Numbered from the stretch's first letter, positions 4,031-16,610 are shown. The stretch: DNA of 18,498 nucleotides from a virus (IMGVR_UViG_2660238061_000008); one strand, 5' to 3'. Notes: generated by a model not told the origin, from the sequence alone. Numbers and translations: made by a program.

Positions 4031-4570
4031 ATGGAGTTGCTTATGTCAAATGTGAGCGGGATCGGTGATGCTTATTACTGGAGTGTTTTTAAAATCGCCG
4101 AGGCCTTTGGGCTTCACTGGGACACAGTAAAAAAACGGCTCCTCGCGGCCAACACTCCTGTGGCTGCGACTGTCAGGGGGAACCCCGTTTACGCCCTGCA
4201 GCATGTCGGGCCTGCCCTGTTTAGTGTGAAGCATGAGGCAGCAGACTCTGTTCATGATCCATCCCGTATGGAGCCGAAAGAGAGAAAGGACTGGTACCAG
4301 TCGGAAAATGAAAGGATCAAGCTGGAAAAGGAGCAGCGAAAACTCATCCCCGTTGATGAAGTAGTCATCGTCTATTCGTCCATGAGAAAGGCTGTCGTCC
4401 AGGTTCTGGAGACAATTCCGGATGTTCTTGAACGCGATTGCGCCCTGACTCCTCAGGCCGTTGGCGTTGTACAGCAGGCCATTGATGACCTGCGATACAC
4501 TCTTCAGGAAAAATCCTACGAGGCTTGTGCTGCTGAATTAATTCCTGATGAGGAAGGAGAGAGTCTCTAG
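4031..4570 (+). CDS. Terminase small subunit (DNA-packaging protein, Nu1-position; sequence divergent from lambda Nu1)
   Basis: Immediately upstream of the large terminase; N-terminal HTH-like segment SVFKIAEAFGLHWDTVKKRL; acidic C-terminus. Likely true start is ATG 4043 (GGAG 4-5 nt upstream) rather than 4031. Confidence 0.75.
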   Translation: MELLMSNVSGIGDAYYWSVFKIAEAFGLHWDTVKKRLLAANTPVAATVRGNPVYALQHVGPALFSVKHEAADSVHDPSRMEPKERKDWYQSENERIKLEKEQRKLIPVDEVVIVYSSMRKAVVQVLETIPDVLERDCALTPQAVGVVQQAIDDLRYTLQEKSYEACAAELIPDEEGESL

Positions 4571-6678: not shown

Positions 6679-6887
6679 ACCAGAATGATATCGAAGCCAT
6701 GATTCAGCGTTATACGGAAGCTGAAATGGCGGTGCTGGACGGAAAATCCGTCACCTTTAATGGTCAGCAGATGACCATGGAAAACTTATCTGAGATCCGG
6801 CAGGGACGGCAGGAGTGGGAGCGCCGCCTTGCGGCTCTGATTACACGACGACGGGGGCATCCCGGGTATCGGCTGGCGAGGTTCTGA
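6669..6887 (+). CDS. W: Head completion / head-tail joining protein (gpW-like)
   Basis: About 70 aa in the lambda W position and size, with a C-terminal RRRG motif as in gpW; overlaps the terminase stop; start is ATG 6669 or 6675 (GGAGG upstream). Confidence 0.7.
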   Translation: MVMNQNDIEAMIQRYTEAEMAVLDGKSVTFNGQQMTMENLSEIRQGRQEWERRLAALITRRRGHPGYRLARF

Positions 6888-8395
6888 TGGCAATTCTTGA
6901 TGATGTGATTGGCGTTTTTTCACCAGGATGGAAAGCGGCAAGGCTGCGTTCCCGTGCGGTGATCCAGGCTTATGAGGCCGTAAAAACGACGCGGACACAC
7001 AAAGCCCGACGGGAGAACCGAACTGCCGACCAGTTAAGCCAGTACGGGGCCGTGTCGTTACGTGAGCAGGCCCGTTACCTTGATAACAACCACGATCTGG
7101 TTATTGGTGTATTTGACAAGCTGGAAGAACGGGTGGTGGGGAAAAACGGGATTATTGTCGAGCCACATCCGGTATTACGCAATGGGGCCATTGCCCGTGA
7201 CCTGGCTGCGGAGATTCGCACCCGATGGAGTGAATGGTCTGTCAGCCCGGAAGTCACCGGGCAGTTTACCCGTCCGATGCTGGAACGTCTGATGCTTCGT
7301 ACCTGGCTGCGCGATGGTGAGGTGTTTGCCCAGATGGTTTCCGGGCGCATAAACAGCCTGACGCCTTCTGCCGGTGTTCATTTCTGGCTGGAGGCGCTCG
7401 AGCCGGACTTTATTCCCATGACCAGTGATGAGAGCAACAGGCTGAATCAGGGCGTGTTTGTTGATGACTGGGGGCGTCCCGAAAAATATCTGGTGTATAA
7501 AAGCCGTCCCGTATCCGGACGGCAGATGGAAACCAAAGAAGTGGATGCAGAGCGAATGCTGCATCTTAAATTTGTTCGCCGTCTGCACCAGATGCGCGGG
7601 ACGTCTTTATTGTCCGGTGTGCTGATCCGCCTCAGTGCTCTGAAAGAGTATGAAGATTCTGAGCTGACTGCAGCAAGGATCGCCGCTGCTCTGGGGATGT
7701 ACATCCGGAAAGGCGACGGGCAGAGCTATGAAGCGGATGGTAATGGCAGCAAGGATAAGGAACGCGAGCTTACCATTCAGCCAGGCATTATTTACGATGA
7801 TCTGAAACCCGGCGAAGAAATCGGAATGGTGAAGTCGGATCGCCCCAATCCTAACCTTGAAACTTTTCGTAATGGTCAGTTGCGTGCCGTGGCGGCGGGC
7901 AGTCGTCTGAGTTTTTCCAGTACAGCGCGCAACTATAACGGCACTTACAGCGCCCAGCGTCAGGAGCTGGTTGAATCCACTGATGGCTACCTGATCCTGC
8001 AGGACTGGTTTATTGGTGCCGTCACCCGTCCGATGTATCGTGCCTGGCTGAAACAGGCTGTGGCATCCGGTGTTATCAGGCTACCCCGCGATCTTGACCG
8101 TTCTTCACTGTATACCGCGGTGTATTCCGGACCGGTGATGCCGTGGATTGACCCTGTTAAGGAGGCTGAGGCCTGGAAAATCCAGATTCGTGGTGGAGCG
8201 GCGACAGAATCAGACTGGGTACGTGCTGGTGGTCGTAATCCGGATGATGTCAAACGTCGGCGCAAGGCCGAAATTGATGAAAACCGCAAGCTGGATCTGG
8301 TATTTGATACCGATCCGGCCAGTGATAAAGGAGGCAGCAGTGCCGCAACGAAACGACATGAGCCGCAGCACACCGACGACCAGTCCGAAGAATAA
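6887..8395 (+). CDS. B: Portal protein (lambda gpB family)
   Basis: About 500 aa ORF after W with ATGA start/stop overlap at 6885-6889; position and size match the lambda-family portal; acidic C-terminus. Confidence 0.9.
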   Translation: MAILDDVIGVFSPGWKAARLRSRAVIQAYEAVKTTRTHKARRENRTADQLSQYGAVSLREQARYLDNNHDLVIGVFDKLEERVVGKNGIIVEPHPVLRNGAIARDLAAEIRTRWSEWSVSPEVTGQFTRPMLERLMLRTWLRDGEVFAQMVSGRINSLTPSAGVHFWLEALEPDFIPMTSDESNRLNQGVFVDDWGRPEKYLVYKSRPVSGRQMETKEVDAERMLHLKFVRRLHQMRGTSLLSGVLIRLSALKEYEDSELTAARIAAALGMYIRKGDGQSYEADGNGSKDKERELTIQPGIIYDDLKPGEEIGMVKSDRPNPNLETFRNGQLRAVAAGSRLSFSSTARNYNGTYSAQRQELVESTDGYLILQDWFIGAVTRPMYRAWLKQAVASGVIRLPRDLDRSSLYTAVYSGPVMPWIDPVKEAEAWKIQIRGGAATESDWVRAGGRNPDDVKRRRKAEIDENRKLDLVFDTDPASDKGGSSAATKRHEPQHTDDQSEE

Positions 8396-8408
8396 TTCCT
8401 GGTTCAGG

Positions 8409-10367
8409 ATGCAGGCTGGTCACCAGAGTGACGCGGATATTTATATTTATGACGAGATTGGTTTCTGGGGTGTTACAGCGAAGCAGTTTATCAGTGATCT
8501 GAATGCACTGGGCGATATCACCCACATTAATCTCCATATTAATTCACCGGGTGGCGATGTCTTTGAAGGCATCGCCATTTTTAATGCGCTGAAAACACAT
8601 GGTGCGTCCATTACCGTTTATGTCGACGGTGTGGCGGCGTCAATGGCGTCGGTCATTGCGATGGTGGGAAACCCGGTCATTATGCCGGAAAACACCTTCA
8701 TGATGATTCATAAACCATTTGGCTTTACGGGCGGTGATGCGGAGGACATGCGCACCTATGCCGACCTGCTCGATAAAGTTGAGGCGGTTCTGTTACCCGC
8801 TTATGCACAGAAAACCGGGAAAACCACCGATGAAATTGCTGCCATGCTGGCGGATGAGACCTGGATGTCCGGTGCCGAATGTCTGGCACATGGATTTGCT
8901 GATCAGGTAACGCCAGCCGTTAAGGCAATGGCATGTATTCAGTCAAAACGTACAGAGGAATTTAAAAAGATGCCGGAATCCATTCGAAACATGATTACTC
9001 CGCCACGCAACAGTGCTCCACGCGTACAGGATAATGAACCTGAAGCCTCCCGGACGCCAGTGCAGGCAGCAGCACCCGTGGTGGATGAAAACAGCATCCG
9101 TGCGCAGGTACTGGCAGAGCAAAAAGCGCGTGTAAACGGTATTAATGATCTGTTTGCCATGTTTGGCGGGCGTTATCAGACGCTGCAGGCTCAGTGTCTT
9201 GCCGATCCTGAATGTTCGCTGGAGCAGGCCCGCGAAAAGCTGTTGAACGAGATGGGGCGCGAGTCCACGCCATCCAATAAAAATACCCCGGCTCATATTT
9301 ATGCCGGTAACGGTAATTTTGTGGGGGACGGGATCCGCCAGGCGCTGATGGCGCGTGCCGGATTTGAAAAAACCGAACGTGATAATGTCTACAACGGGAT
9401 GACCCTGCGTGAATATGCCCGTATGTCACTGACTGAACGGGGTATTGGGGTTTCCAGTTATAACCCGATGCAGATGGTCGGTGCGGCGTTCACACACAGT
9501 ACGTCTGACTTCGGTAATATTCTGCTGGATGTTGCGAACAAAGCCATTCTGCAGGGCTGGGAAGATGCCCCTGAAACCTATGAACAGTGGACGCGGAAAG
9601 GTCAGTTGTCTGATTTTAAAATTGCCCATCGTGTGGGTATGGGTGGCTTCAGTGCTCTGCGTCAGGTGCGTGAAGGGGCGGAATATAAATACGTCACCAC
9701 CGGAGATAAACAGGCCACTATTGCACTGGCGACCTATGGCGAGCTGTTCAGTATCACCCGTCAGGCCATTATCAATGATGATCTGAATATGCTGACCGAT
9801 GTCCCGATGAAACTGGGCCGTGCGGCGAAATCCACTATTGCCGATCTGGTTTATGCCATTCTGACGTCTAACCCGAAAATCTCCACAGATAATGTAAGTC
9901 TGTTCGATAAAGCGAAACATGCAAACGTACTGGAGAGCGCTGCAATGGACGTGGCATCGCTGGATAAAGCCCGCCAGTTGATGCGCGTTCAGAAAGAGGG
10001 GGAGCGTCATCTGAATATTCGTCCTGCGTTCGTACTGGTACCGACGGCGATGGAGTCTGTTGCTAACCAGGTCATTCGCTCCTCAAGTGTCAAGGGGGCT
10101 GACATTAACGCCGGTATTATTAACCCGGTGAAAGATTTTGCGACCGTTATTGCAGAGCCTCGTCTTGATGATAACAGCCAGACCACCTTCTACCTGGCTG
10201 CGTCAAAAGGCTCCGATACGATTGAAGTGGCTTATCTCAACGGTGTGGATACGCCATATATTGATCAGATGGAGGGCTTCAGTGTGGATGGCGTGACAAC
10301 GAAAGTGCGTATTGACGCCGGTGTCGCGCCAGTTGATCACCGCGGTCTGGTGAAATGTACGGCGTAA
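8409..10367 (+). CDS. Fused prohead protease (ClpP/S49-like) - scaffold-like linker - major capsid protein (tripartite capsid gene, Gifsy-2-like)
   Basis: N-terminal domain has ClpP-like motifs (IYIYDEIGF, INSPGGDVFEG, GVAASMAS, MMIHKP); middle is Pro/Gln/Ala-rich; the C-terminal 400 aa is a large capsid-type domain. Alternative starts: GTG 8340 (AAGGAGG 5 nt upstream) or ATG 8358. Confidence 0.85.
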   Translation: MQAGHQSDADIYIYDEIGFWGVTAKQFISDLNALGDITHINLHINSPGGDVFEGIAIFNALKTHGASITVYVDGVAASMASVIAMVGNPVIMPENTFMMIHKPFGFTGGDAEDMRTYADLLDKVEAVLLPAYAQKTGKTTDEIAAMLADETWMSGAECLAHGFADQVTPAVKAMACIQSKRTEEFKKMPESIRNMITPPRNSAPRVQDNEPEASRTPVQAAAPVVDENSIRAQVLAEQKARVNGINDLFAMFGGRYQTLQAQCLADPECSLEQAREKLLNEMGRESTPSNKNTPAHIYAGNGNFVGDGIRQALMARAGFEKTERDNVYNGMTLREYARMSLTERGIGVSSYNPMQMVGAAFTHSTSDFGNILLDVANKAILQGWEDAPETYEQWTRKGQLSDFKIAHRVGMGGFSALRQVREGAEYKYVTTGDKQATIALATYGELFSITRQAIINDDLNMLTDVPMKLGRAAKSTIADLVYAILTSNPKISTDNVSLFDKAKHANVLESAAMDVASLDKARQLMRVQKEGERHLNIRPAFVLVPTAMESVANQVIRSSSVKGADINAGIINPVKDFATVIAEPRLDDNSQTTFYLAASKGSDTIEVAYLNGVDTPYIDQMEGFSVDGVTTKVRIDAGVAPVDHRGLVKCTA

Positions 10368-10389
10368 ACGTCGCAGACAACAACTCTGA

Positions 10390-10410
10390 TGGCCCGTAAG
10401 GGCTTTTTTT
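10390..10410 (+). terminator. Weak rho-independent terminator after the capsid gene
   Basis: Short stem GGCCC / GGGCC-like around a GTAA loop, followed by TTTTTTT (10404-10410). Confidence 0.4.
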
Positions 10411-10453
10411 GTACCTGAAATCAGCCCCTGAACGGGGCTGTGCGGAGACAGTT

Positions 10454-10777
10454 ATGGCAAAGAATTTTGTAGAAGAAGGAAAAACGGTGGCGATTGTTGC
10501 CAGTGCAGCCATCAGCAGCGGAGATCTGGTGCAGGTGGGTGATGTTTTTGCGGTGGCGCTGACCGATATTCCACAGGGTGAAACAGGCGACGGCATGACC
10601 GAAGGTGTGTTTATCCTGCCTAAACTGAAAACGGATGACATGAAAACGGGTAAGAAGGTTTATCTGAAGTCCGGAAAAGTTCAGCTGACTAACAGCGGCT
10701 CTGATCCGCTGGTCGGGGTTGTCTGGGCAGATGCCGGAACCAGTGCAGAAGAAGTGCCGGTAAAACTCAATGTCTGA
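10454..10777 (+). CDS. Small head protein, DUF2190-like (putative capsid decoration/cement protein)
   Basis: Translation MAKNFVEEGKTVAIVASAAISSGDLVQVGDVFAVALTDIPQGETGDGMTEGVFILPK... matches the about 110-aa family found right after major capsid genes; GGAGA SD 5 nt upstream. Confidence 0.6.
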   Translation: MAKNFVEEGKTVAIVASAAISSGDLVQVGDVFAVALTDIPQGETGDGMTEGVFILPKLKTDDMKTGKKVYLKSGKVQLTNSGSDPLVGVVWADAGTSAEEVPVKLNV

Positions 10778-11045
10778 TCCCTTTTCCCGGCTGGCAGCGC
10801 GTATGGATGCGATCACGGTCAGAAAGATGGGAAAGACAGCCTCGATTAATGATGTCGATATGGCTGTGATCCCGGGCGAAACACTGGCAGAGCTGAATGC
10901 TCTGTCCGGACCTGCGGTCTCTCTGGTGGTGTTTTCTTCGGGATACCGCCCACGGCGCGGGGATCGCGTTGTTTATGACGGACAACAATGGACGGTCACA
11001 CGGCATGAACGTTTTAACGGTAAGCCAATGATCTTTATTGAGTAA
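10770..11045 (+). CDS. FII: Head-tail joining protein (lambda gpFII-like)
   Basis: Pattern DPFSRLAARMDAITVRKMGKTASI...RRGDRVVYDGQQWTV parallels lambda FII FDAAIARADETIRGYMGTSATI...RRGDTLTIGEENFWV; overlaps the preceding stop. Confidence 0.7.
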   Translation: MSDPFSRLAARMDAITVRKMGKTASINDVDMAVIPGETLAELNALSGPAVSLVVFSSGYRPRRGDRVVYDGQQWTVTRHERFNGKPMIFIE

Positions 11046-12038: not shown

Positions 12039-12788
12039 GTGGCAATGACCACACCAAATCCACTGGCAAAAACGAAAGGTGCGGGAACGACGTTCTGGAT
12101 GTACACCGGCAAGGGCGATGCGTTTGCGAACCCTTTATCGGACACTGACTGGCTGCGTCTTGCGATGGTGAAGGATCTGCAACCTGGCGAAATGACCGCT
12201 GATGCAGAAGATGACACTTATCTCGATGATGAAGATGCAGACTGGAAAACGACAACCCAGGGGCAGAAATCCGTCGGTGATACTTCGGCGACGCTGGCCT
12301 GGCGTCCGGGTGACAGCGGACAGAAAAAACTGGTTCAGTTGTTCGACTCCGGTGAAGTCTGCGCGTTTCGTATCAAATATCCCAACGGCACTGTTGATGT
12401 TTTCCGTGGCTGGCTGAGCTCACTGGGTAAAACCATTGCCTCAAAAGACGTGATGACCCACACAGTGAAAATCAGCGGTGTGGGGCGTCCGTATCTGGCA
12501 GAGGAAGGCACTGAAACAGTGAGCGTTACCGGGCTGACGGTGGCACCGGCATCTGCCAGTGTAAAAGTGGGAGCAACCACCACGCTGACCTTTACAGTAA
12601 AACCTGACGGAGCCAGTGACAAAGCGATCAGTGTGCATTCGACAGATCCACAGACTGCCACGGTGACCCTGAACGGGCTTGTGGCCACGGTGAAAGGCGT
12701 GAAGCAGGGCAGTGTCAGCATTGTGGGCATGACTTCTGACGGCGATTTTGTGGCAGTGGCTGCGGTGGCTGTCAGCGCCGCAGGTTAA
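12039..12788 (+). CDS. V: Major tail protein V with C-terminal Ig-like domain
   Basis: Similarity to lambda gpV along its length (KGAGTT.W.Y.G.GD..ANPLSD.DW.RLA.VKDL.PGE.TA...DD.YLDDEDADW...GQKS.GDTS.TLAW.PG...FRGW.SS.GK); SD GGAGGTGG. Confidence 0.95.
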   Translation: MAMTTPNPLAKTKGAGTTFWMYTGKGDAFANPLSDTDWLRLAMVKDLQPGEMTADAEDDTYLDDEDADWKTTTQGQKSVGDTSATLAWRPGDSGQKKLVQLFDSGEVCAFRIKYPNGTVDVFRGWLSSLGKTIASKDVMTHTVKISGVGRPYLAEEGTETVSVTGLTVAPASASVKVGATTTLTFTVKPDGASDKAISVHSTDPQTATVTLNGLVATVKGVKQGSVSIVGMTSDGDFVAVAAVAVSAAG

Positions 12789-12808: not shown

Positions 12809-12832
12809 GCCCCGGTTATCCGGGGCTTTTTT
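12809..12832 (+). terminator. Rho-independent terminator between V and G
   Basis: Perfect 7-bp stem GCCCCGG / CCGGGGC around a TTAT loop, followed by TTTTTT. Confidence 0.6.
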
Positions 12833-12845
12833 GCAGGTGGAGAAC

Positions 12846-13235
12846 ATGATGTTTCTGAAACAGGGCACGTTTAATTATGAAAAGCAGTCCGTGGTGCTCA
12901 GTGAGCTGTCCGGGCTGCAGAGAATTGAATATCTGGCGTTTGTTCAGCAGCGAACGGCAAAGTTTGATGCCGAAGAGGGAGAACTGCCGGAGGCTGAACG
13001 ACAGATTGCTTTTCTGCGGATGGGGATGGATATCAATGCCTGGCTGGTTTCCCGCTCACTGTGGAATGCGGAACAGTCTCAGGATGTTGAGACGCTTTGC
13101 GCATCCGTTATTACAACATGGTCGTATGATGCCCTGGGAGCGGGGGCGGAGATGGTTCTGTCGCTGAGCGGTATGGGAGCCATTGAGAATGCCGGGGATT
13201 TGGAGCATGAGGTGCTGACGCCGGAAAAGTCCTGA
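12846..13235 (+). CDS. G: Tail assembly chaperone G
   Basis: Similarity to lambda gpG (MFLK...V.LSELS.LQRIE.LA...); tandem ATGs at 12846/12849 with GGTGGAG upstream; the T frame follows in -1. Confidence 0.85.
   Translation: MMFLKQGTFNYEKQSVVLSELSGLQRIEYLAFVQQRTAKFDAEEGELPEAERQIAFLRMGMDINAWLVSRSLWNAEQSQDVETLCASVITTWSYDALGAGAEMVLSLSGMGAIENAGDLEHEVLTPEKS
13223..13229 (+). promoter_or_regulatory. Putative -1 programmed ribosomal frameshift site (G GAA AAG) giving a G-T fusion
   Basis: T is in the -1 frame relative to G; that frame is open only from 13211 (stop at 13208-13210), and G stops at 13233-13235, so the shift must occur within 13211-13232; GGAAAAG is the only slippery-like motif there. 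Confidence 0.5.
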
Positions 13236-13243
13236 CGCGGGAA

Positions 13244-13573
13244 ATGCAGTTTGTCATGCGGCTTGCCCGGGAGTTCAGGCGGGCAGACTGGCGGCGGATG
13301 CTGTCGGAAATGTCGGCCACTGAGCTTGGTGAGTGGGGCGATTATTTCCGGATGCAGAGCTTCAGTGATGTGTGGATGGATGCGCAGTTTGCCTCGCTGA
13401 AGGCATTGATCGTGAGAATGGTGTCCGGCAGCAGTGATGCTGCGGTGGCTGATTTCAGCCTTTTACCGGAAGAGAACGGGATACCGGAGCGAACGGACGA
13501 AGAACTGATGCATCTTGGGGAAGGTATTTCCGGAGGTGTGCGTTATGGACCAGATAGCCAACCTGGTCATTGA
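13244..13573 (+). CDS. T: Tail assembly protein T (likely expressed only as the G-T frameshift fusion)
   Basis: ORF in the -1 frame of G, in the lambda T position, overlapping the start of H; the coding frame extends upstream to 13211, consistent with frameshift entry rather than independent initiation. Confidence 0.75.
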   Translation: MQFVMRLAREFRRADWRRMLSEMSATELGEWGDYFRMQSFSDVWMDAQFASLKALIVRMVSGSSDAAVADFSLLPEENGIPERTDEELMHLGEGISGGVRYGPDSQPGH

Positions 13574-16500
13574 TTTGGGGATTGATGCGGCAGAGTTTAA
13601 AAATGAAATTCCCCGTATCAAAAACCTTCTGAATGGTGCAGCCAGCGATGCAGAACGGTCTTCTGCCCGTATGCAGCGTTTTATGGAGCGTCAGACTCAG
13701 GCCGCCCGGCAGACAACGCAGGCGGCGTCTTCGGCTGCAACAGCCGCATCCGTCCATGCGCAGACGGTGGAGAAGAACGCACAGGCTCATGAACGCATGG
13801 CCCGCGAGGTGGAGAAAACCCGCCAGCGTATGGAGGCACTGAGCCAGAAAATGCGCGAGGAACAGGCGCAGGCCATGGCTCTGGCGGAGGCTCAGGATAA
13901 AGCAGCTGCTGCGTTTTATCGTCAGATTGACAGTGTGAAACAGGCCAGTGCGGGGCTGCAGGAATTACAGCGTATTCAGCAGCAGATCCGACAGGCCAGA
14001 AACAGTGGCGGGATTGGTCAGCAGGATTATCTGGCGCTGATTTCTGAGGTTACGGCGAAAACCCGTGTTCTTACGCAGGCTGAGGAAGAGGCTACCCGAC
14101 AGAAAGTGGCGTTTATCCGTCAGCTTAAAGAGCAGGCAACCCGCCAGAATCTTTCTTCTTCTGAGTTGCTTCGTGCTAAGGCTGCCCAGCTGGGGGTAAG
14201 CAGTGCTGCAGAAGTGTATATCCGCAAAATGGAGCAGGCAGGAAAAGCCACGCATTCGCTGGGTCTGAAAAGTGCAGCGGCCCGCCAGGAGATAGGCGTT
14301 CTGATAGGTGAACTGGCCCGCGGCAATTTAGGGGCGCTGAGGGGATCCGGGATAACGCTGGCTAACCGTGCCGGATGGATAGACACTCTGATGTCACCGA
14401 AAGGCATGATGCTTGGCGGGGTTATTGGCGGTATTGCCGCGTCCGTCTATGGTCTGGGTAAAGCCTGGTATGACGGTCAGAAGGAGGGGGAAGAATTTAA
14501 CCGCCAGTTGTCGCTGACGGGGCATTATGCCGGAGTCACTGCCGGGCAGCTGTGGACGCTCAGTCGTGCTATTTCCGGGAATGGTATCACGCAACATGCT
14601 GCAGCCGGTGTGCTGGCTCAGGTGGTGGGGAGTGGTGCATTTCGTGGAAACGATATCGGTATGGTGGCGAGAGCTGCCGCACAGATGGAGCGATCGGTTG
14701 GCCAGTCGGTCAGCGATACCATAAATCAGTTTAAGCGGCTGAAGGATGATCCTGTAAATGCCGCGAAGGCTCTGGACAATGAGCTGCATTTTCTTACTGC
14801 CACTCAGCTTGAGCAGATACGTGTCCTTGGGGATCAGGGACGGTCCAGTGATGCTGCACGGATAGCCATGTCTGCACTGGCAGAGGAAACCGGTCGGCGT
14901 ACTGCGGATATTGATAATAACCTCAATGCGCTTGGCAGTACGCTGAAGTATCTGTCTGATTTATGGAGTCGTTTCTGGGATGCGGCCATGAATATTGGTC
15001 GTGAAGACTCGCTGGATGAACAGATTGCCGCTTTACAGGAGAAAGTGTCGCGGGCGAAAAGACTCCCCTGGACGGCATCATCTTCTCAGGTTGAATACGA
15101 TCAGCAGCGTCTTAACGATCTTCAGGAGAAAAAACGCCAGAAGGATTTGCAGGATGCAAAAGAGCAGGCAGAGCGGAATTATCAGGAGCAACAGAAACGA
15201 CGTAATGCTGAAAATGCTGCACTGAACCGGATGAATGAAACGGAAGCAGCACGACATCAGCGTGAAATTGCGCGTATTAATGCCATGCAGTACGCCGATC
15301 AGGCTGTCAGGGATGCAGCGATACAACGTGAAAATGAACGTTACGAGAAAGCCCTGGCATCCGGTAAGAAAAAAACACGCGAAACCCGTAATGATGAGGC
15401 CACCCGGTTATTGCTGCAGTACAGTCAGCAACAGGCACAGGTGGAAGGACAGATTGCTGCTGCAAGACAGTCAGCAGGCATTGCCACTGAAAAGATGACA
15501 GAAGCGCATAAACAGCTTCTGGCTCTGCAGCAGCGCATCAGCGATCTGGACGGGAAAAAACTGACGGCAGATGAAAAGAGTGTGCTGGCCCGTAAAGATG
15601 AACTGATTCAGGCACTGACGCTGCTGGATGTAAAACAGCAGGAGCTTCAGAAACAGACGGCACTCAACGATCTGAAGAAAAAAACAATTCAGCTGACCAG
15701 TCAACTGGCTGAAGAAGAGCTCGCTCAGCGTCAGCAACATGACCTGGATATCGCCACGGTGGGTATGGGTGATCAGCAGCGGCAGCGATATCAGGTACAA
15801 CTGAGTCTTCGCCAGAAATACCAGCAACAGCTGGAGCAGTTGAGGCGGGATAGTGAGCAGAAAGGGACATATAACACGGATGACTACAGAAAGGCCGAGC
15901 AGGCGCTGACGGAGAGCCTGAACCGACAACTGAATGAGAATCGCCGTTACTGGCAACAGCTTGAAGTTGTGCAGGGTAACTGGAAAAACGGAGTCCTGCG
16001 TGCATTTCAGGATTTTACCGTGGATGCAGACAATACGGCAGGAACAGCAGAACAGGTGTTCTCGTCAGCCTTCAGCAACATGGGAAATGGCCTGGCAACT
16101 TTTGTCACTACCGGCAAACTCAACTTCAAATCCTTCACCTCTTCGGTGCTGTCAGATATGGCGAAAATCCTGGCGCAGGCAACCATGATGAAATCGATAA
16201 AAGGGATTGGCAGTGTACTGGGATTTGATCTCAGCAGCCTTTCCCTGAATGCCAATGGGGGGATTTATCAGTCTGCTGATTTGAGTCGTTACAGTGGCAC
16301 GGTGGTTAACCGTCCGACGTTTTTTGCTTTTGCAAAAGGCGCGGGTGTGATGGGGGAAGCGGGACCTGAAGCCATTCTGCCACTGCGTCGTGGTGCTGAC
16401 GGTAAGCTGGGGGTTGTGGCGGATATTGGTGGTTCAGGTATGGCGATGTTTGCCCCGCAGTACAACATCGAGATCAATAACGATGGCACGAACGGGCAGA

Positions 16501-16610
16501 TAGGTCCGGCTGCCCTGAAGGTGGTTTATGACCTTGGGAAAAAAGCGGCAGCGGACTTTATGCAACAGCAGGCCCGTGATGGTGGTCGGTTAAGTGGAGC
16601 ATATCGGTAA
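13545..16610 (+). CDS. H: Tail tape measure protein H
   Basis: N-terminus MDQIANLVIDLGIDAAEF aligns with lambda H MAEPVGDLVVDLSLDAARF; C-terminus NNDGTNGQIGPAALKVVYDLGKKAAADFMQQQARDGG is nearly the same as in lambda H; long Gln/Arg/Glu-rich coiled-coil centre; GGAGG SD before ATG 13545. Confidence 0.95.
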   Translation: MDQIANLVIDLGIDAAEFKNEIPRIKNLLNGAASDAERSSARMQRFMERQTQAARQTTQAASSAATAASVHAQTVEKNAQAHERMAREVEKTRQRMEALSQKMREEQAQAMALAEAQDKAAAAFYRQIDSVKQASAGLQELQRIQQQIRQARNSGGIGQQDYLALISEVTAKTRVLTQAEEEATRQKVAFIRQLKEQATRQNLSSSELLRAKAAQLGVSSAAEVYIRKMEQAGKATHSLGLKSAAARQEIGVLIGELARGNLGALRGSGITLANRAGWIDTLMSPKGMMLGGVIGGIAASVYGLGKAWYDGQKEGEEFNRQLSLTGHYAGVTAGQLWTLSRAISGNGITQHAAAGVLAQVVGSGAFRGNDIGMVARAAAQMERSVGQSVSDTINQFKRLKDDPVNAAKALDNELHFLTATQLEQIRVLGDQGRSSDAARIAMSALAEETGRRTADIDNNLNALGSTLKYLSDLWSRFWDAAMNIGREDSLDEQIAALQEKVSRAKRLPWTASSSQVEYDQQRLNDLQEKKRQKDLQDAKEQAERNYQEQQKRRNAENAALNRMNETEAARHQREIARINAMQYADQAVRDAAIQRENERYEKALASGKKKTRETRNDEATRLLLQYSQQQAQVEGQIAAARQSAGIATEKMTEAHKQLLALQQRISDLDGKKLTADEKSVLARKDELIQALTLLDVKQQELQKQTALNDLKKKTIQLTSQLAEEELAQRQQHDLDIATVGMGDQQRQRYQVQLSLRQKYQQQLEQLRRDSEQKGTYNTDDYRKAEQALTESLNRQLNENRRYWQQLEVVQGNWKNGVLRAFQDFTVDADNTAGTAEQVFSSAFSNMGNGLATFVTTGKLNFKSFTSSVLSDMAKILAQATMMKSIKGIGSVLGFDLSSLSLNANGGIYQSADLSRYSGTVVNRPTFFAFAKGAGVMGEAGPEAILPLRRGADGKLGVVADIGGSGMAMFAPQYNIEINNDGTNGQIGPAALKVVYDLGKKAAADFMQQQARDGGRLSGAYR

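What the first reader, a model, noticed from the sequence alone, without database searches (positions are those of the whole stretch)
13211..13244. G-T tail chaperone frameshift appears to use a non-canonical slippery site (G GAA AAG)
T lies in the -1 frame of G and that frame is open only from 13211. The conserved G/T -1 programmed frameshift must therefore occur in the last 8 codons of G. Lambda uses G GGA AAG; here the only candidate is G GAA AAG (13223-13229), where the A-site Lys AAG to AAA slip is canonical but the P-site Glu GAA to GGA re-pairing needs a G:U pair. This predicts a lower or differently tuned G-T to G ratio.
Basis: partly seen in the sequence, partly recalled or inferred. 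Interest (0 to 1): 0.5.

Follow-up and report, generated by a model that had tools for sequence, protein, structure and literature searches.

The report
Non-canonical G-T tail chaperone frameshift site
This lambda-like prophage almost certainly joins its tail-assembly proteins G and T by a -1 ribosomal frameshift on G GAA AAG, one base different from lambda's textbook G GGA AAG, and in the relatives sampled here this "imperfect" site is the commonest, probably ancestral form, although no database record examined annotates it.

Summary
G is 12846-13235 and T lies in its -1 frame. That frame is closed by TGA at 13208-13210, and the only slip-competent sequence before G's stop is G GAA AAG (13223-13229).

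It is the positional homologue of lambda's G GGA AAG:
- It sits at the same ungapped distance from the conserved T motif.
- The post-slip peptide is similar (KVLTREMQF here, KVFDGELSF in lambda).

It is not peculiar to this window:
- In 440 related loci the heptamer reads G-G-N-A-A-A-R.
- Positions 1, 2, 4, 5 and 6 are invariant across 120 distinct junctions, while the flanks are nearly randomised.
- GGAAAAG is found in 347 loci and 18 of 24 T lineages; lambda's GGGAAAG is one nested lineage.

Independent initiation of T at ATG 13244, as public records annotate it, is poorly supported. That ATG has a weak, misplaced Shine-Dalgarno, is not conserved, and the -1 frame upstream of it is conserved.

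I found no conserved stimulatory element: no downstream hairpin, no Rfam match, and an upstream SD-like GAGGTG explained by amino-acid composition.

Published E. coli experiments treat G GAA AAG as poorly slippery, so efficiency is probably below lambda's ~4%, but this is unmeasured.

Verdict: a real, conserved, unannotated variant of a known mechanism, of moderate interest.

The parts
12039..12788 (+). Major tail tube protein gene (lambda V-like). It marks the upstream boundary of the conserved V-G-T-H gene order.
   Evidence: ORF. Pfam Phage_TTP_12 at 2.7e-66 plus Big_2. Annotated as major tail protein in mEp460 and Ayreon.
12846..13235 (+). Gene G, the tail assembly chaperone (129 aa). This is the 0-frame product, ending ...EVLTPEKS*.
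   Evidence: Translation. Pfam Phage_TAC_2 (lambda G) at 1.8e-39. 33% identical to lambda G, E=4e-16. SD-like AGGUGGAGA lies 2-5 nt upstream of the start codon.
13208..13210 (+). TGA stop in the -1 (T) frame. It sets the 5' limit of the interval in which the shift can occur.
   Evidence: Listed as GAG>TGA.
13211..13232 (+). The interval where both frames are open (7 full 0-frame codons). The frameshift must happen here.
13223..13229 (+). Slippery heptamer G GAA AAG (0 frame GAA AAG; -1 frame GGA AAA). It is the positional homologue of lambda's G GGA AAG.
   Evidence: Sequence. It lies a fixed, ungapped 63 nt upstream of the conserved DWR codons in 440 relatives. Positions 1, 2, 4, 5 and 6 are invariant in 120 distinct junctions.
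13226..13229 (+). A_AAG tetramer, the core Lys-tRNA slip element inside the heptamer.
   Evidence: A_AAG is the most shift-prone tetramer in E. coli (PMC4066793).
13233..13235 (+). G stop codon TGA, one codon after the heptamer.
   Evidence: In 336 of 347 GGAAAAG loci the stop is one codon after the heptamer, and in 5 it directly follows it.
13229..13573 (+). T portion, read in the -1 frame after the slip (114 aa plus stop). The predicted G-T fusion is G residues 1-128 plus these 114 aa, giving 242 aa with the junction ...LTPEK|VLTREMQF...
   Evidence: Translations. Pfam Phage_tail_T at 5.1e-15. 38% identical to lambda T, E=5e-27.
13244..13246 (+). ATG used as the start of a standalone T CDS in RefSeq/GenBank annotations. 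Probably not the functional start.
   Evidence: Annotations. Only a weak SD-like GGGAA (-4.3 kcal/mol) at 0 nt spacing. The ATG is absent at this position in Proteus, Providencia, lambda and other relatives, while the -1-frame peptide upstream of it is conserved.
13209..13214 (+). SD-like GAGGTG ending 8 nt upstream of the heptamer. Tested as a possible dnaX-type upstream stimulator and not supported.
   Evidence: -6.9 kcal/mol to the anti-SD. It is GAGGCG in many close relatives. It is no stronger than synonymous recodings of the same peptide (p=0.29; most lineages 0.2-0.95).
13545..16610 (+). Tape measure protein gene (lambda H-like). It marks the downstream boundary of the module and overlaps the end of T.
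   Evidence: ORF. Pfam TMP_2, Tape_meas_lam_C and TMP_4. Strong SD CCGGAGGUG (-10.8 kcal/mol) 6 nt upstream of the start.

Best explanation
A small fraction of ribosomes translating G shift -1 on G GAA AAG (13223-13229). They read on in the T frame and produce a 242-aa G-T fusion (...LTPEK-VLTREMQF...). The remaining ribosomes terminate two codons later and give the 129-aa G protein.

Favoured sub-mechanism (inferred): a tandem slip.
- tRNA-Lys re-pairs from AAG to AAA, which is fully cognate.
- tRNA-Glu (anticodon mnm5s2U-U-C) re-pairs from GAA to GGA. It keeps pairs at codon positions 1 and 3 and accepts a G:U pair at position 2.

The family-wide rule is G_GNA_AAR. Lambda (N=G) is the only fully canonical case. 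No RNA stimulator appears to be conserved, so the efficiency is probably low.

By homology with lambda, the G part of the fusion would bind the tape measure protein and the T part would recruit the major tail protein. That function is inferred, not tested here.

Shown here: the frames, the homology, the positional identity with lambda's site, and the conservation. Inferred: that the shift occurs, its efficiency, and tandem versus single-tRNA slippage.
For: 1. Gene identity and order. The region reads major tail protein gene, then G (PF06894, 1.8e-39), T (PF06223, 5e-15) in G's -1 frame, then tape measure.
2. The site is the only one possible in the 7-codon interval.
3. Positional homology. The heptamer lies an ungapped 63 nt upstream of the DWR codons in all 440 loci. 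It differs from lambda's heptamer by one base, and the post-slip peptides align residue for residue.
4. Conservation. In 120 distinct 118-nt junctions, heptamer positions 1, 2, 4, 5 and 6 have zero entropy and position 7 is G in 113 and A in 7. Most flanking positions show 1-1.9 bits.
5. Position 1 is a synonymous third-codon position. It is always G, although the preceding codon varies (CCG, CTG, TTG, GCG, ATG, AAG). The 0-frame codon is always GNA (Glu, Gly, Ala or Val).
6. Codon-usage products over 24 lineages are 10^-9.9, 10^-8.7 and 10^-11.8. These are upper bounds on significance because the lineages are treated as independent.
7. Breadth. GGAAAAG occurs in 347 of 440 loci and in 18 of 24 T lineages separated by more than 10% distance. 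These include Citrobacter, Klebsiella, Proteus, Providencia and Sodalis genomes, down to 43% T identity.
8. It is present in 17 phage genome records, including mEp460, cdtI, Ayreon and phi458.
9. The -1-frame residues upstream of any ATG are conserved, so translation must enter from G.
10. Thermodynamic work on dnaX variants shows single mismatches, including A.U>G.U, are tolerated. It also shows the AAG>AAA change is favourable by -2.9 kJ/mol (PMC6787027).
Against: - There is no direct protein evidence for the fusion.
- In a reconstituted E. coli system, AUG GAA AAG gave mainly 0-frame product and was chosen as the 'less slippery' control against G GGA AAG (PMC6924986).
- A_AAG without a stimulator is at near-background level in vivo, about 0.15% (PMC4066793).
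- I found no conserved downstream structure. The RNAalifold consensus is essentially unstructured, and the window folds give z = -1.3 and -0.1.
- There is no Rfam frameshift element, and no SD-like signal beyond what the acidic peptide composition gives.
- In-frame G_GNA_AAR heptamers occur elsewhere in the window's genes with no apparent function.
- Second-position re-pairing has not been measured in the published thermodynamic model (PMC6787027).
Confidence: 0.8

Rival explanations
1. Same site and same product, but only one tRNA slips. Either tRNA-Lys alone slips on A_AAG, or it slips in the P site while the A site waits for the next codon (UCC here; CCC or a stop codon in relatives). tRNA-Glu re-pairing would play no role.
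For: - A_AAG is the most shift-prone tetramer in E. coli (PMC4066793).
- Variants with N=C or T (GGCAAAA, GGTAAAG) cannot form a middle-position pair at all.
- In all 8 loci where the Lys codon is AAA, and in 5 GGAAAAG loci, the TAG stop directly follows the heptamer. This resembles a 'shifty stop' arrangement.
- In the window clade the stop is only one codon away.
Against: - Heptamer positions 1 and 2 are invariant G-G in 120 distinct junctions, although position 1 is a synonymous site and the amino acids on both sides vary. A pure tetramer mechanism does not require them.
- In this window the stop is not adjacent to the Lys codon.
- Tetramers alone are near background without a strong pseudoknot (PMC4066793).
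Confidence: 0.25
2. T is made mainly as a free protein from ATG 13244, as all public annotations imply. This could occur by termination-reinitiation after G's TGA, 8 nt upstream. No fusion would be needed.
For: - ATG 13244 is the first start codon in the T frame and lies 8 nt after G's stop.
- RefSeq/PGAP and the GenBank phage records examined annotate T as a standalone CDS starting there (Ayreon starts it at a later ATG).
Against: - The only SD-like element is GGGAA at -4.3 kcal/mol and 0 nt spacing. Most of the other genes checked in the window show -5.6 to -10.8 kcal/mol, several of them at 2-6 nt.
- The ATG is not conserved. The equivalent codon is CGG, CTG, ATT, CAT or CGC in relatives. 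Lambda and several of the relatives examined have no ATG at either conserved position, and lambda's first one lies further in.
- The -1-frame peptide K-[VAI]-x-x-x-[ES]-x-x-F upstream of the ATG is conserved.
- In lambda, both gpG and the frameshift product gpGT are required for tail assembly (PMC3296357, PMC5009743).
Confidence: 0.07
3. The heptamer is a decayed lambda site (G>A mutation) in a defective prophage and no longer works.
For: - It differs from lambda's site by one transition.
- The sequence was used experimentally as a poorly slippery control (PMC6924986).
Against: - It is identical in 347 loci and 18 divergent lineages, and in 17 phage genome records including mEp460, cdtI, Ayreon and phi458.
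- The G and T frames are intact and conserved.
- The tree places lambda's GGGAAAG as the derived state.
Confidence: 0.03

Closest known systems
Bacteriophage lambda G / G-T programmed -1 frameshift (G GGA AAG; about 4% efficiency; Levin et al. 1993 and Xu et al. 2004, as cited in PMC5009743 and PMC3296357)
   Same: - Homologous G (33% identity) and T (38% identity) proteins.
- The same position between the major tail protein gene (V-like) and the tape measure gene.
- The same -1 direction.
- The slip site is at the same nucleotide position relative to the T domain.
- The same Lys AAG>AAA A-site slip.
- No conserved RNA stimulator was detected here.
   Different: - Heptamer position 3 is A rather than G. 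The P-site codon is therefore GAA (tRNA-Glu) and re-pairs with GGA through a middle-position G:U, instead of GGA (tRNA-Gly) re-pairing cognately with GGG.
- G's stop is one codon after the heptamer rather than five.
- An ATG happens to lie in the T frame 15 nt downstream.
- Both slipping tRNAs (Glu and Lys) are ones that receive the 2-thiouridine modification at U34 (PMC3296357).
A_AAG tetranucleotide -1 shift sites of E. coli and IS3-family elements (Sharma et al. 2014, PMC4066793)
   Same: It contains an in-frame A_AAG, the most shift-prone tetramer, which relies on tRNA-Lys(UUU) pairing poorly with AAG.
   Different: - IS3-type tetramers depend on a strong downstream pseudoknot: about 0.15% without it and 5.6% with it. 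No conserved structure is found here.
- The two bases 5' of the codon before the tetramer (G-G) are invariant, which a pure tetramer site does not need.
dnaX A AAA AAG tripartite signal (SD-like element, heptamer, stem-loop)
   Same: - The same A-site AAG>AAA slip.
- An SD-like GAGGTG lies 8 nt upstream in this window, close to the dnaX spacing of about 10 nt.
   Different: - There is no downstream stem-loop.
- The SD-like element is not conserved as nucleotides and is explained by the Glu-rich peptide.
- The P-site codon is not AAA.
PRFect 'twofour' (XXYYYY) and G:U-dependent non-canonical motifs in tail-chaperone frameshifts of actinobacteriophages (McNair et al. 2024, PMC10885494)
   Same: - GGAAAA fits the XXYYYY pattern.
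- The same idea applies: tRNA-Glu re-pairing GAA>GGA becomes acceptable if G:U pairs are allowed.
   Different: - Those motifs were derived by inspecting annotated actinophage overlaps, without positional-homology or conservation tests.
- That paper does not discuss this motif for the lambda T family or for Enterobacterales prophages.
- No experimental support exists in either case.

Membership tests
Lambda-type G/G-T tail assembly chaperone frameshift module | Two overlapping ORFs lie between the major tail protein gene and the tape measure gene. | tested here: met
   Major tail protein gene 12039-12788, G 12846-13235, T frame 13211-13573, tape measure 13545-16610.
Lambda-type G/G-T tail assembly chaperone frameshift module | The upstream ORF is homologous to gpG and the downstream ORF to the T domain. 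| tested here: met
   PF06894 at 1.8e-39 and PF06223 at 5.1e-15. BLASTP to lambda G gives 4e-16 and to lambda T 5e-27.
Lambda-type G/G-T tail assembly chaperone frameshift module | The downstream ORF is in the -1 frame, lacks its own conserved start and RBS, and is conserved upstream of any start codon. | tested here: met
   -1 frame shown. ATG 13244 has a weak, misplaced SD and is not conserved. The K-[VAI]-x-x-x-[ES]-x-x-F peptide upstream of it is conserved.
Lambda-type G/G-T tail assembly chaperone frameshift module | A conserved slippery sequence lies in the overlap, at the position of lambda's. | tested here: met
   G-G-N-A-A-A-R lies a fixed 63 nt upstream of the DWR codons in 440 loci. 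Positions 1, 2, 4, 5 and 6 are invariant.
Lambda-type G/G-T tail assembly chaperone frameshift module | A G-T fusion protein is produced at a low percentage and is required for tail assembly. | not testable with these tools
   This needs a reporter assay, a western blot or mass spectrometry, plus genetics.
Canonical X_XXY_YYZ tandem-slip heptamer | Positions 1-3 are identical and positions 4-6 are identical, so both tRNAs keep two non-wobble pairs after the slip. | tested here: not met
   Positions 1-3 are G-G-A. After the slip the P-site tRNA-Glu would face GGA, with a G:U pair at the middle position.
Z_ZZN tetramer shift site (A_AAG class) | An in-frame Z_ZZN allowing cognate A-site re-pairing. 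| tested here: met
   A_AAG at 13226-13229, in frame.
Z_ZZN tetramer shift site (A_AAG class) | Dependence on a strong downstream stimulator (an IS3-type pseudoknot). | tested here: not met
   The RNAalifold consensus over 16 GGAAAAG lineages is essentially unstructured. The window folds give z = -1.3 and -0.1, and there is no Rfam hit.
dnaX-type signal | An upstream SD-like stimulator 6-17 nt from the motif, selected at the nucleotide level. | tested here: inconclusive
   SD-like strength upstream of non-canonical heptamers exceeds the G-ORF background. It does not exceed synonymous recodings of the same peptide. GAGGTG is GAGGCG in many close relatives.
PRFect 'twofour' XXYYYY motif | Two identical bases followed by four identical bases within the overlap. 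| tested here: met
   GGAAAA at 13223-13228. Motif definition is in PMC10885494.

The most novel reading that the evidence does not exclude
G_GNA_AAR, and specifically G GAA AAG, is a slippery-site class in its own right. It would support physiologically sufficient -1 frameshifting (about 1% or more) in Enterobacterales with no RNA stimulator. The mechanism would be a P-site tRNA-Glu that re-pairs with a second-position G:U. On this reading it is the ancestral state of the lambda G-T signal, and lambda's textbook heptamer is a derived 'improvement'. Because both slipping tRNAs carry mnm5s2U34, the G:G-T ratio of these very common prophages would be doubly sensitive to the host's 2-thiouridine pathway.
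Probability: 0.4. Interest if true: 0.55.

Novelty: new variant of a known kind. Interest (0 to 1): 0.4.

Why it matters
- **Annotation.** The same G/T region (at least about 95% identical) is present in 1846 of 5426 complete E. coli genomes. Every record inspected annotates T as a free-standing protein. The real product, a 242-aa G-T fusion, is missing from the records examined.
- **Motif searches.** The systematic search for -1 frameshift genes in Enterobacteriaceae (PMC4066793) considered only canonical X_XXZ_ZZN heptamers, so it could not have found this site.
- **Mechanism.** G GAA AAG has been used as the 'poorly slippery' control in ribosome kinetics (PMC6924986). The published thermodynamic model of -1 frameshifting has no data for second-position changes (PMC6787027). 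A natural, strongly conserved site of exactly this type is a ready-made test case.
- **Textbook view.** It changes how the lambda example should be read: among the T relatives sampled here, lambda's canonical heptamer is the exception.

Tried and rejected
1. **Downstream stimulatory RNA structure: rejected.**
   - The 101-nt MFE fold contains a hairpin whose inner stem starts 7 nt after the heptamer, but z is only -1.3.
   - The 61-nt fold is different, with z = -0.1.
   - RNAalifold over 16 GGAAAAG lineages and over all 28 representatives gives essentially no consensus structure. The Proteus versions fold at only -4.6 to -7 kcal/mol.
   - No Rfam family matches at E<=10, apart from noise hits to eukaryotic RNAs.
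2. **Upstream SD-like stimulator (GAGGTG 13209-13214): not supported.**
   - It looked promising at first. Non-canonical heptamers have stronger SD-like sequences than lambda's and than the G-ORF background (Mann-Whitney p=5e-15).
   - Synonymous recoding of the same 8 codons gives equal or stronger SD-like scores in nearly all lineages.
   - The signal therefore comes from the Glu-rich tail, not from nucleotide selection.
3. **Other slip sites in the overlap:** none exist.
4. **Transcriptional slippage:** the A run is only 4 bases, which from general knowledge is too short.
5. **Finding diversity in sequence collections.**
   - The first IMG/VR scan with the window's T returned 80 loci, all 100% identical at the T protein level.
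   - The genome-contig scan gave only 18 loci because a single peptide pattern was used.
   - Diversity came from re-querying with more distant T proteins.
6. **Literature.**
   - Xu, Hendrix & Duda 2004 (Mol Cell) and their 2014 JMB paper are not held. I could not check whether their tables already list GGAAAAG.
   - Full-text searches for GGAAAAG or 'G GAA AAG' together with frameshift, tail and phage found no paper describing it as a natural phage site.

Full report
**Observation**

- G starts at ATG 12846 and ends ...GAG GTG CTG ACG CCG GAA AAG TCC TGA (stop at 13233-13235; 129 aa).
- The -1 frame carries TGA at 13208-13210 and is then open to the stop at 13571-13573.
- I compared each 0-frame codon in the interval with the codon one base upstream. 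Only AAG>AAA (13227-13229) is a cognate re-pairing.
- The preceding GAA>GGA re-pairing keeps codon positions 1 and 3 and needs a G:U pair in the middle. The other five codons cannot re-pair.
- G GAA AAG (13223-13229) is therefore the only candidate.
- Lambda's site, read from NC_001416, is G GGA AAG.

**What the genes are**
- G matches Pfam Phage_TAC_2 (lambda G) at 1.8e-39, and the -1-frame ORF matches Phage_tail_T at 5.1e-15.
- The flanking genes are a lambda-type tail tube protein and a tape measure protein.
- BLASTP to lambda G and T gives 33% identity (4e-16) and 38% identity (5e-27).
- The region is 97.6-99.9% identical to phi458, Ayreon, mEp460, cdtI and 13 other phage records.
- The same G/T region is found in 1846 of 5426 complete E. 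coli genomes.
- Every record I opened annotates G and T as separate CDSs with no ribosomal slippage. These were mEp460, Ayreon, ATCC 25922 (PGAP), PhiR47_1 and Tritos. All but Ayreon start T at the ATG equivalent to 13244; Ayreon uses a later ATG.

**Positional homology with lambda**
- Downstream of the heptamer the -1 frame reads GKVLTREMQFVMRLAREF here and GKVFDGELSFALKLAREM in lambda, with identical spacing.
- I collected 440 loci encoding T relatives from IMG/VR, GTDB genomes and phage records.
- In all of them the heptamer lies an ungapped 63 nt upstream of the conserved DWR codons.

**Conservation**

The heptamer counts over the 440 loci are:

| Heptamer | Loci | Position of G's stop |
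|---|---|---|
| GGAAAAG | 347 | one codon later in 336, adjacent in 5, five codons later in 6 |
| GGGAAAG | 81 | five codons later; all lambda-like |
| GGCAAAA | 7 | adjacent |
| GGTAAAG | 4 | five codons later |
| GGGAAAA | 1 | adjacent |

- Among 120 distinct 118-nt junction sequences, heptamer positions 1, 2, 4, 5 and 6 are invariant.
- Position 7 is G in 113 and A in 7. Position 3 is A 81, G 29, C 6, T 4.
- Most flanking positions carry 1-1.9 bits of entropy.
- Position 1 is a synonymous third-codon position of a codon that varies (CCG, CTG, TTG, GCG, ATG, AAG) but always ends in G.
- The next codon encodes Glu, Gly, Ala or Val but is always GNA.
- With the window's own codon usage and 24 lineages treated as independent, the chance products are about 10^-10, 10^-9 and 10^-12. 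The true significance is lower because the lineages are related.
- Position 7 is also constrained by the Val/Ala/Ile residue of the T frame, so it is not clean evidence on its own.
- The pattern G_GNA_AAR fits selection for re-pairing of the P-site tRNA at its first position together with the Lys slip.

**Direction of evolution**
- A neighbour-joining tree of T-frame peptides was built from 24 representatives more than 10% apart.
- GGAAAAG appears in 18 lineages on both sides of the midpoint root.
- GGGAAAG (lambda), GGGAAAA and GGTAAAG each form one nested lineage, and GGCAAAA forms one two-member clade.
- By parsimony GGAAAAG is ancestral and lambda's canonical heptamer is derived.
- The sample is biased by my choice of queries, and the tree is a simple distance tree.

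**Rival: independent T**
- ATG 13244 has only GGGAA (-4.3 kcal/mol) immediately adjacent. Most of the other genes checked in the window show -5.6 to -10.8 kcal/mol, several of them at 2-6 nt.
- The ATG is replaced by CGG, CTG, ATT, CAT or CGC in relatives. Lambda and several of the relatives examined have no ATG at either conserved position, and lambda's first one lies further in.
- The residues encoded upstream of it in the -1 frame are conserved.
- Reinitiation after G's stop, 8 nt upstream, cannot be excluded as a minor extra route in this clade.

**Stimulators**
- I found none that is conserved.
- Folding the downstream 101 nt and 61 nt gives z = -1.3 and -0.1.
- RNAalifold over GGAAAAG lineages returns essentially no structure.
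- Rfam has no match.
- An SD-like GAGGTG 8 nt upstream looked like a dnaX-type stimulator. SD-like strength is higher before non-canonical heptamers than before lambda's.
- However, synonymous recoding of the same acidic peptide gives equal or stronger scores, and the element is GAGGCG in many close relatives.
- In-frame G_GNA_AAR heptamers also occur elsewhere in the window's genes, including G GAA AAG in the putative small terminase ORF (4031-4570) and a canonical G GGA AAG at 10829. The heptamer is therefore tolerated in ordinary genes.

**Literature context**
- Lambda shifts at about 4%. The gpG:gpGT ratio matters for assembly and responds to 2-thiolation of tRNA Lys/Glu/Gln (PMC3296357, PMC5009743).
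- Peng et al. [quoted passage not shown] They obtained mainly 0-frame product, though frameshifting rose with EF-G domain-4 mutants (PMC6924986).
- Sharma et al. 2014 found A_AAG to be the best tetramer, but near background without a pseudoknot. Their genome search covered only canonical heptamers (PMC4066793).
- Bock et al. 2019 showed that single mismatches, including A.U>G.U, are tolerated in dnaX variants and that AAG>AAA is favourable. They state that second-position changes were not sampled (PMC6787027).
- PRFect lists an XXYYYY 'twofour' motif and raises G:U pairing for GAA>GGA in actinophage chaperones (PMC10885494).
- I found no accessible paper naming G GAA AAG as a natural phage site. 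The key comparative paper, Xu et al. 2004, was not available.

**Mechanism and verdict**
- The best-supported reading is a -1 frameshift on G GAA AAG producing a 242-aa G-T fusion with the junction ...LTPEK|VLTREMQF....
- A tandem slip with a near-cognate tRNA-Glu is favoured over a Lys-only slip, because the two 5' G residues are invariant.
- Efficiency is probably below lambda's but is unmeasured.
- This is a conserved, widespread, unannotated variant of a well-known mechanism. It is not a new kind of system, and its interest is moderate.

Noticed in passing
window 12809-12836 (+): A GC-rich hairpin (GCCCCGG TTAT CCGGGGC) followed by TTTTTT lies between the major tail protein gene (12039-12788) and G. 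It resembles an intrinsic terminator. mEp460 and Ayreon annotate a terminator at the equivalent place. It could lower G/T/tape-measure transcription relative to the major tail protein.
   Followed up: partly
window 4324-4330 (+), in ORF 4031-4570 (probable small terminase, position only): The same heptamer G GAA AAG occurs in frame here. A -1 shift would terminate after 8 codons. If the heptamer is slippery at the percent level, this gene would lose that fraction of its product.
   Followed up: partly
window 10829-10835 (+), in ORF 10770-11045: A canonical lambda-type G GGA AAG lies in frame in a small head/tail-connector-region ORF. Other in-frame G_GNA_AAR heptamers are at 4507, 4953, 10456, 10759, 12065 and 12956. 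I did not check whether any is conserved or leads into an open -1 frame.
   Followed up: no
Loci L273-L277, L089, L100 (GGCAAAA/GGGAAAA) and L090-L093, L101 (GGAAAAG): Whenever the Lys codon is AAA rather than AAG, G's TAG stop directly follows the heptamer (8 of 8 loci). The Proteus/Providencia GGAAAAG sites also have an adjacent TAG. This suggests a stop-codon-assisted slip in those lineages.
   Followed up: partly
window 13209-13211, and the equivalent column in 120 junctions: A Glu/Asp codon (GAR/GAY) five codons upstream of the heptamer's GAA codon is almost invariant (G in 113 of 120, A in 116 of 120). The rest of the G tail is highly variable. In the window clade it also supplies the GA of the -1-frame TGA.
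   Followed up: no
RefSeq/GenBank records: NZ_CP009072.1, NC_019716.1, MF807953.1, PV340566.1, OV696610.1, NC_001416.1: T is annotated as a free-standing CDS in every record examined, starting at whichever ATG is available. In the lambda RefSeq record it is listed as 10115-10549 with no join to G. The G-T fusion protein is absent from these annotations.
   Followed up: yes
window 8148-10367 (+) versus 6815-8395 (+): A 739-aa ORF overlaps the end of the portal-sized ORF by about 250 nt. It is long enough to be a fused protease/scaffold-capsid gene, or it may have a later true start. I did not examine it.
   Followed up: no
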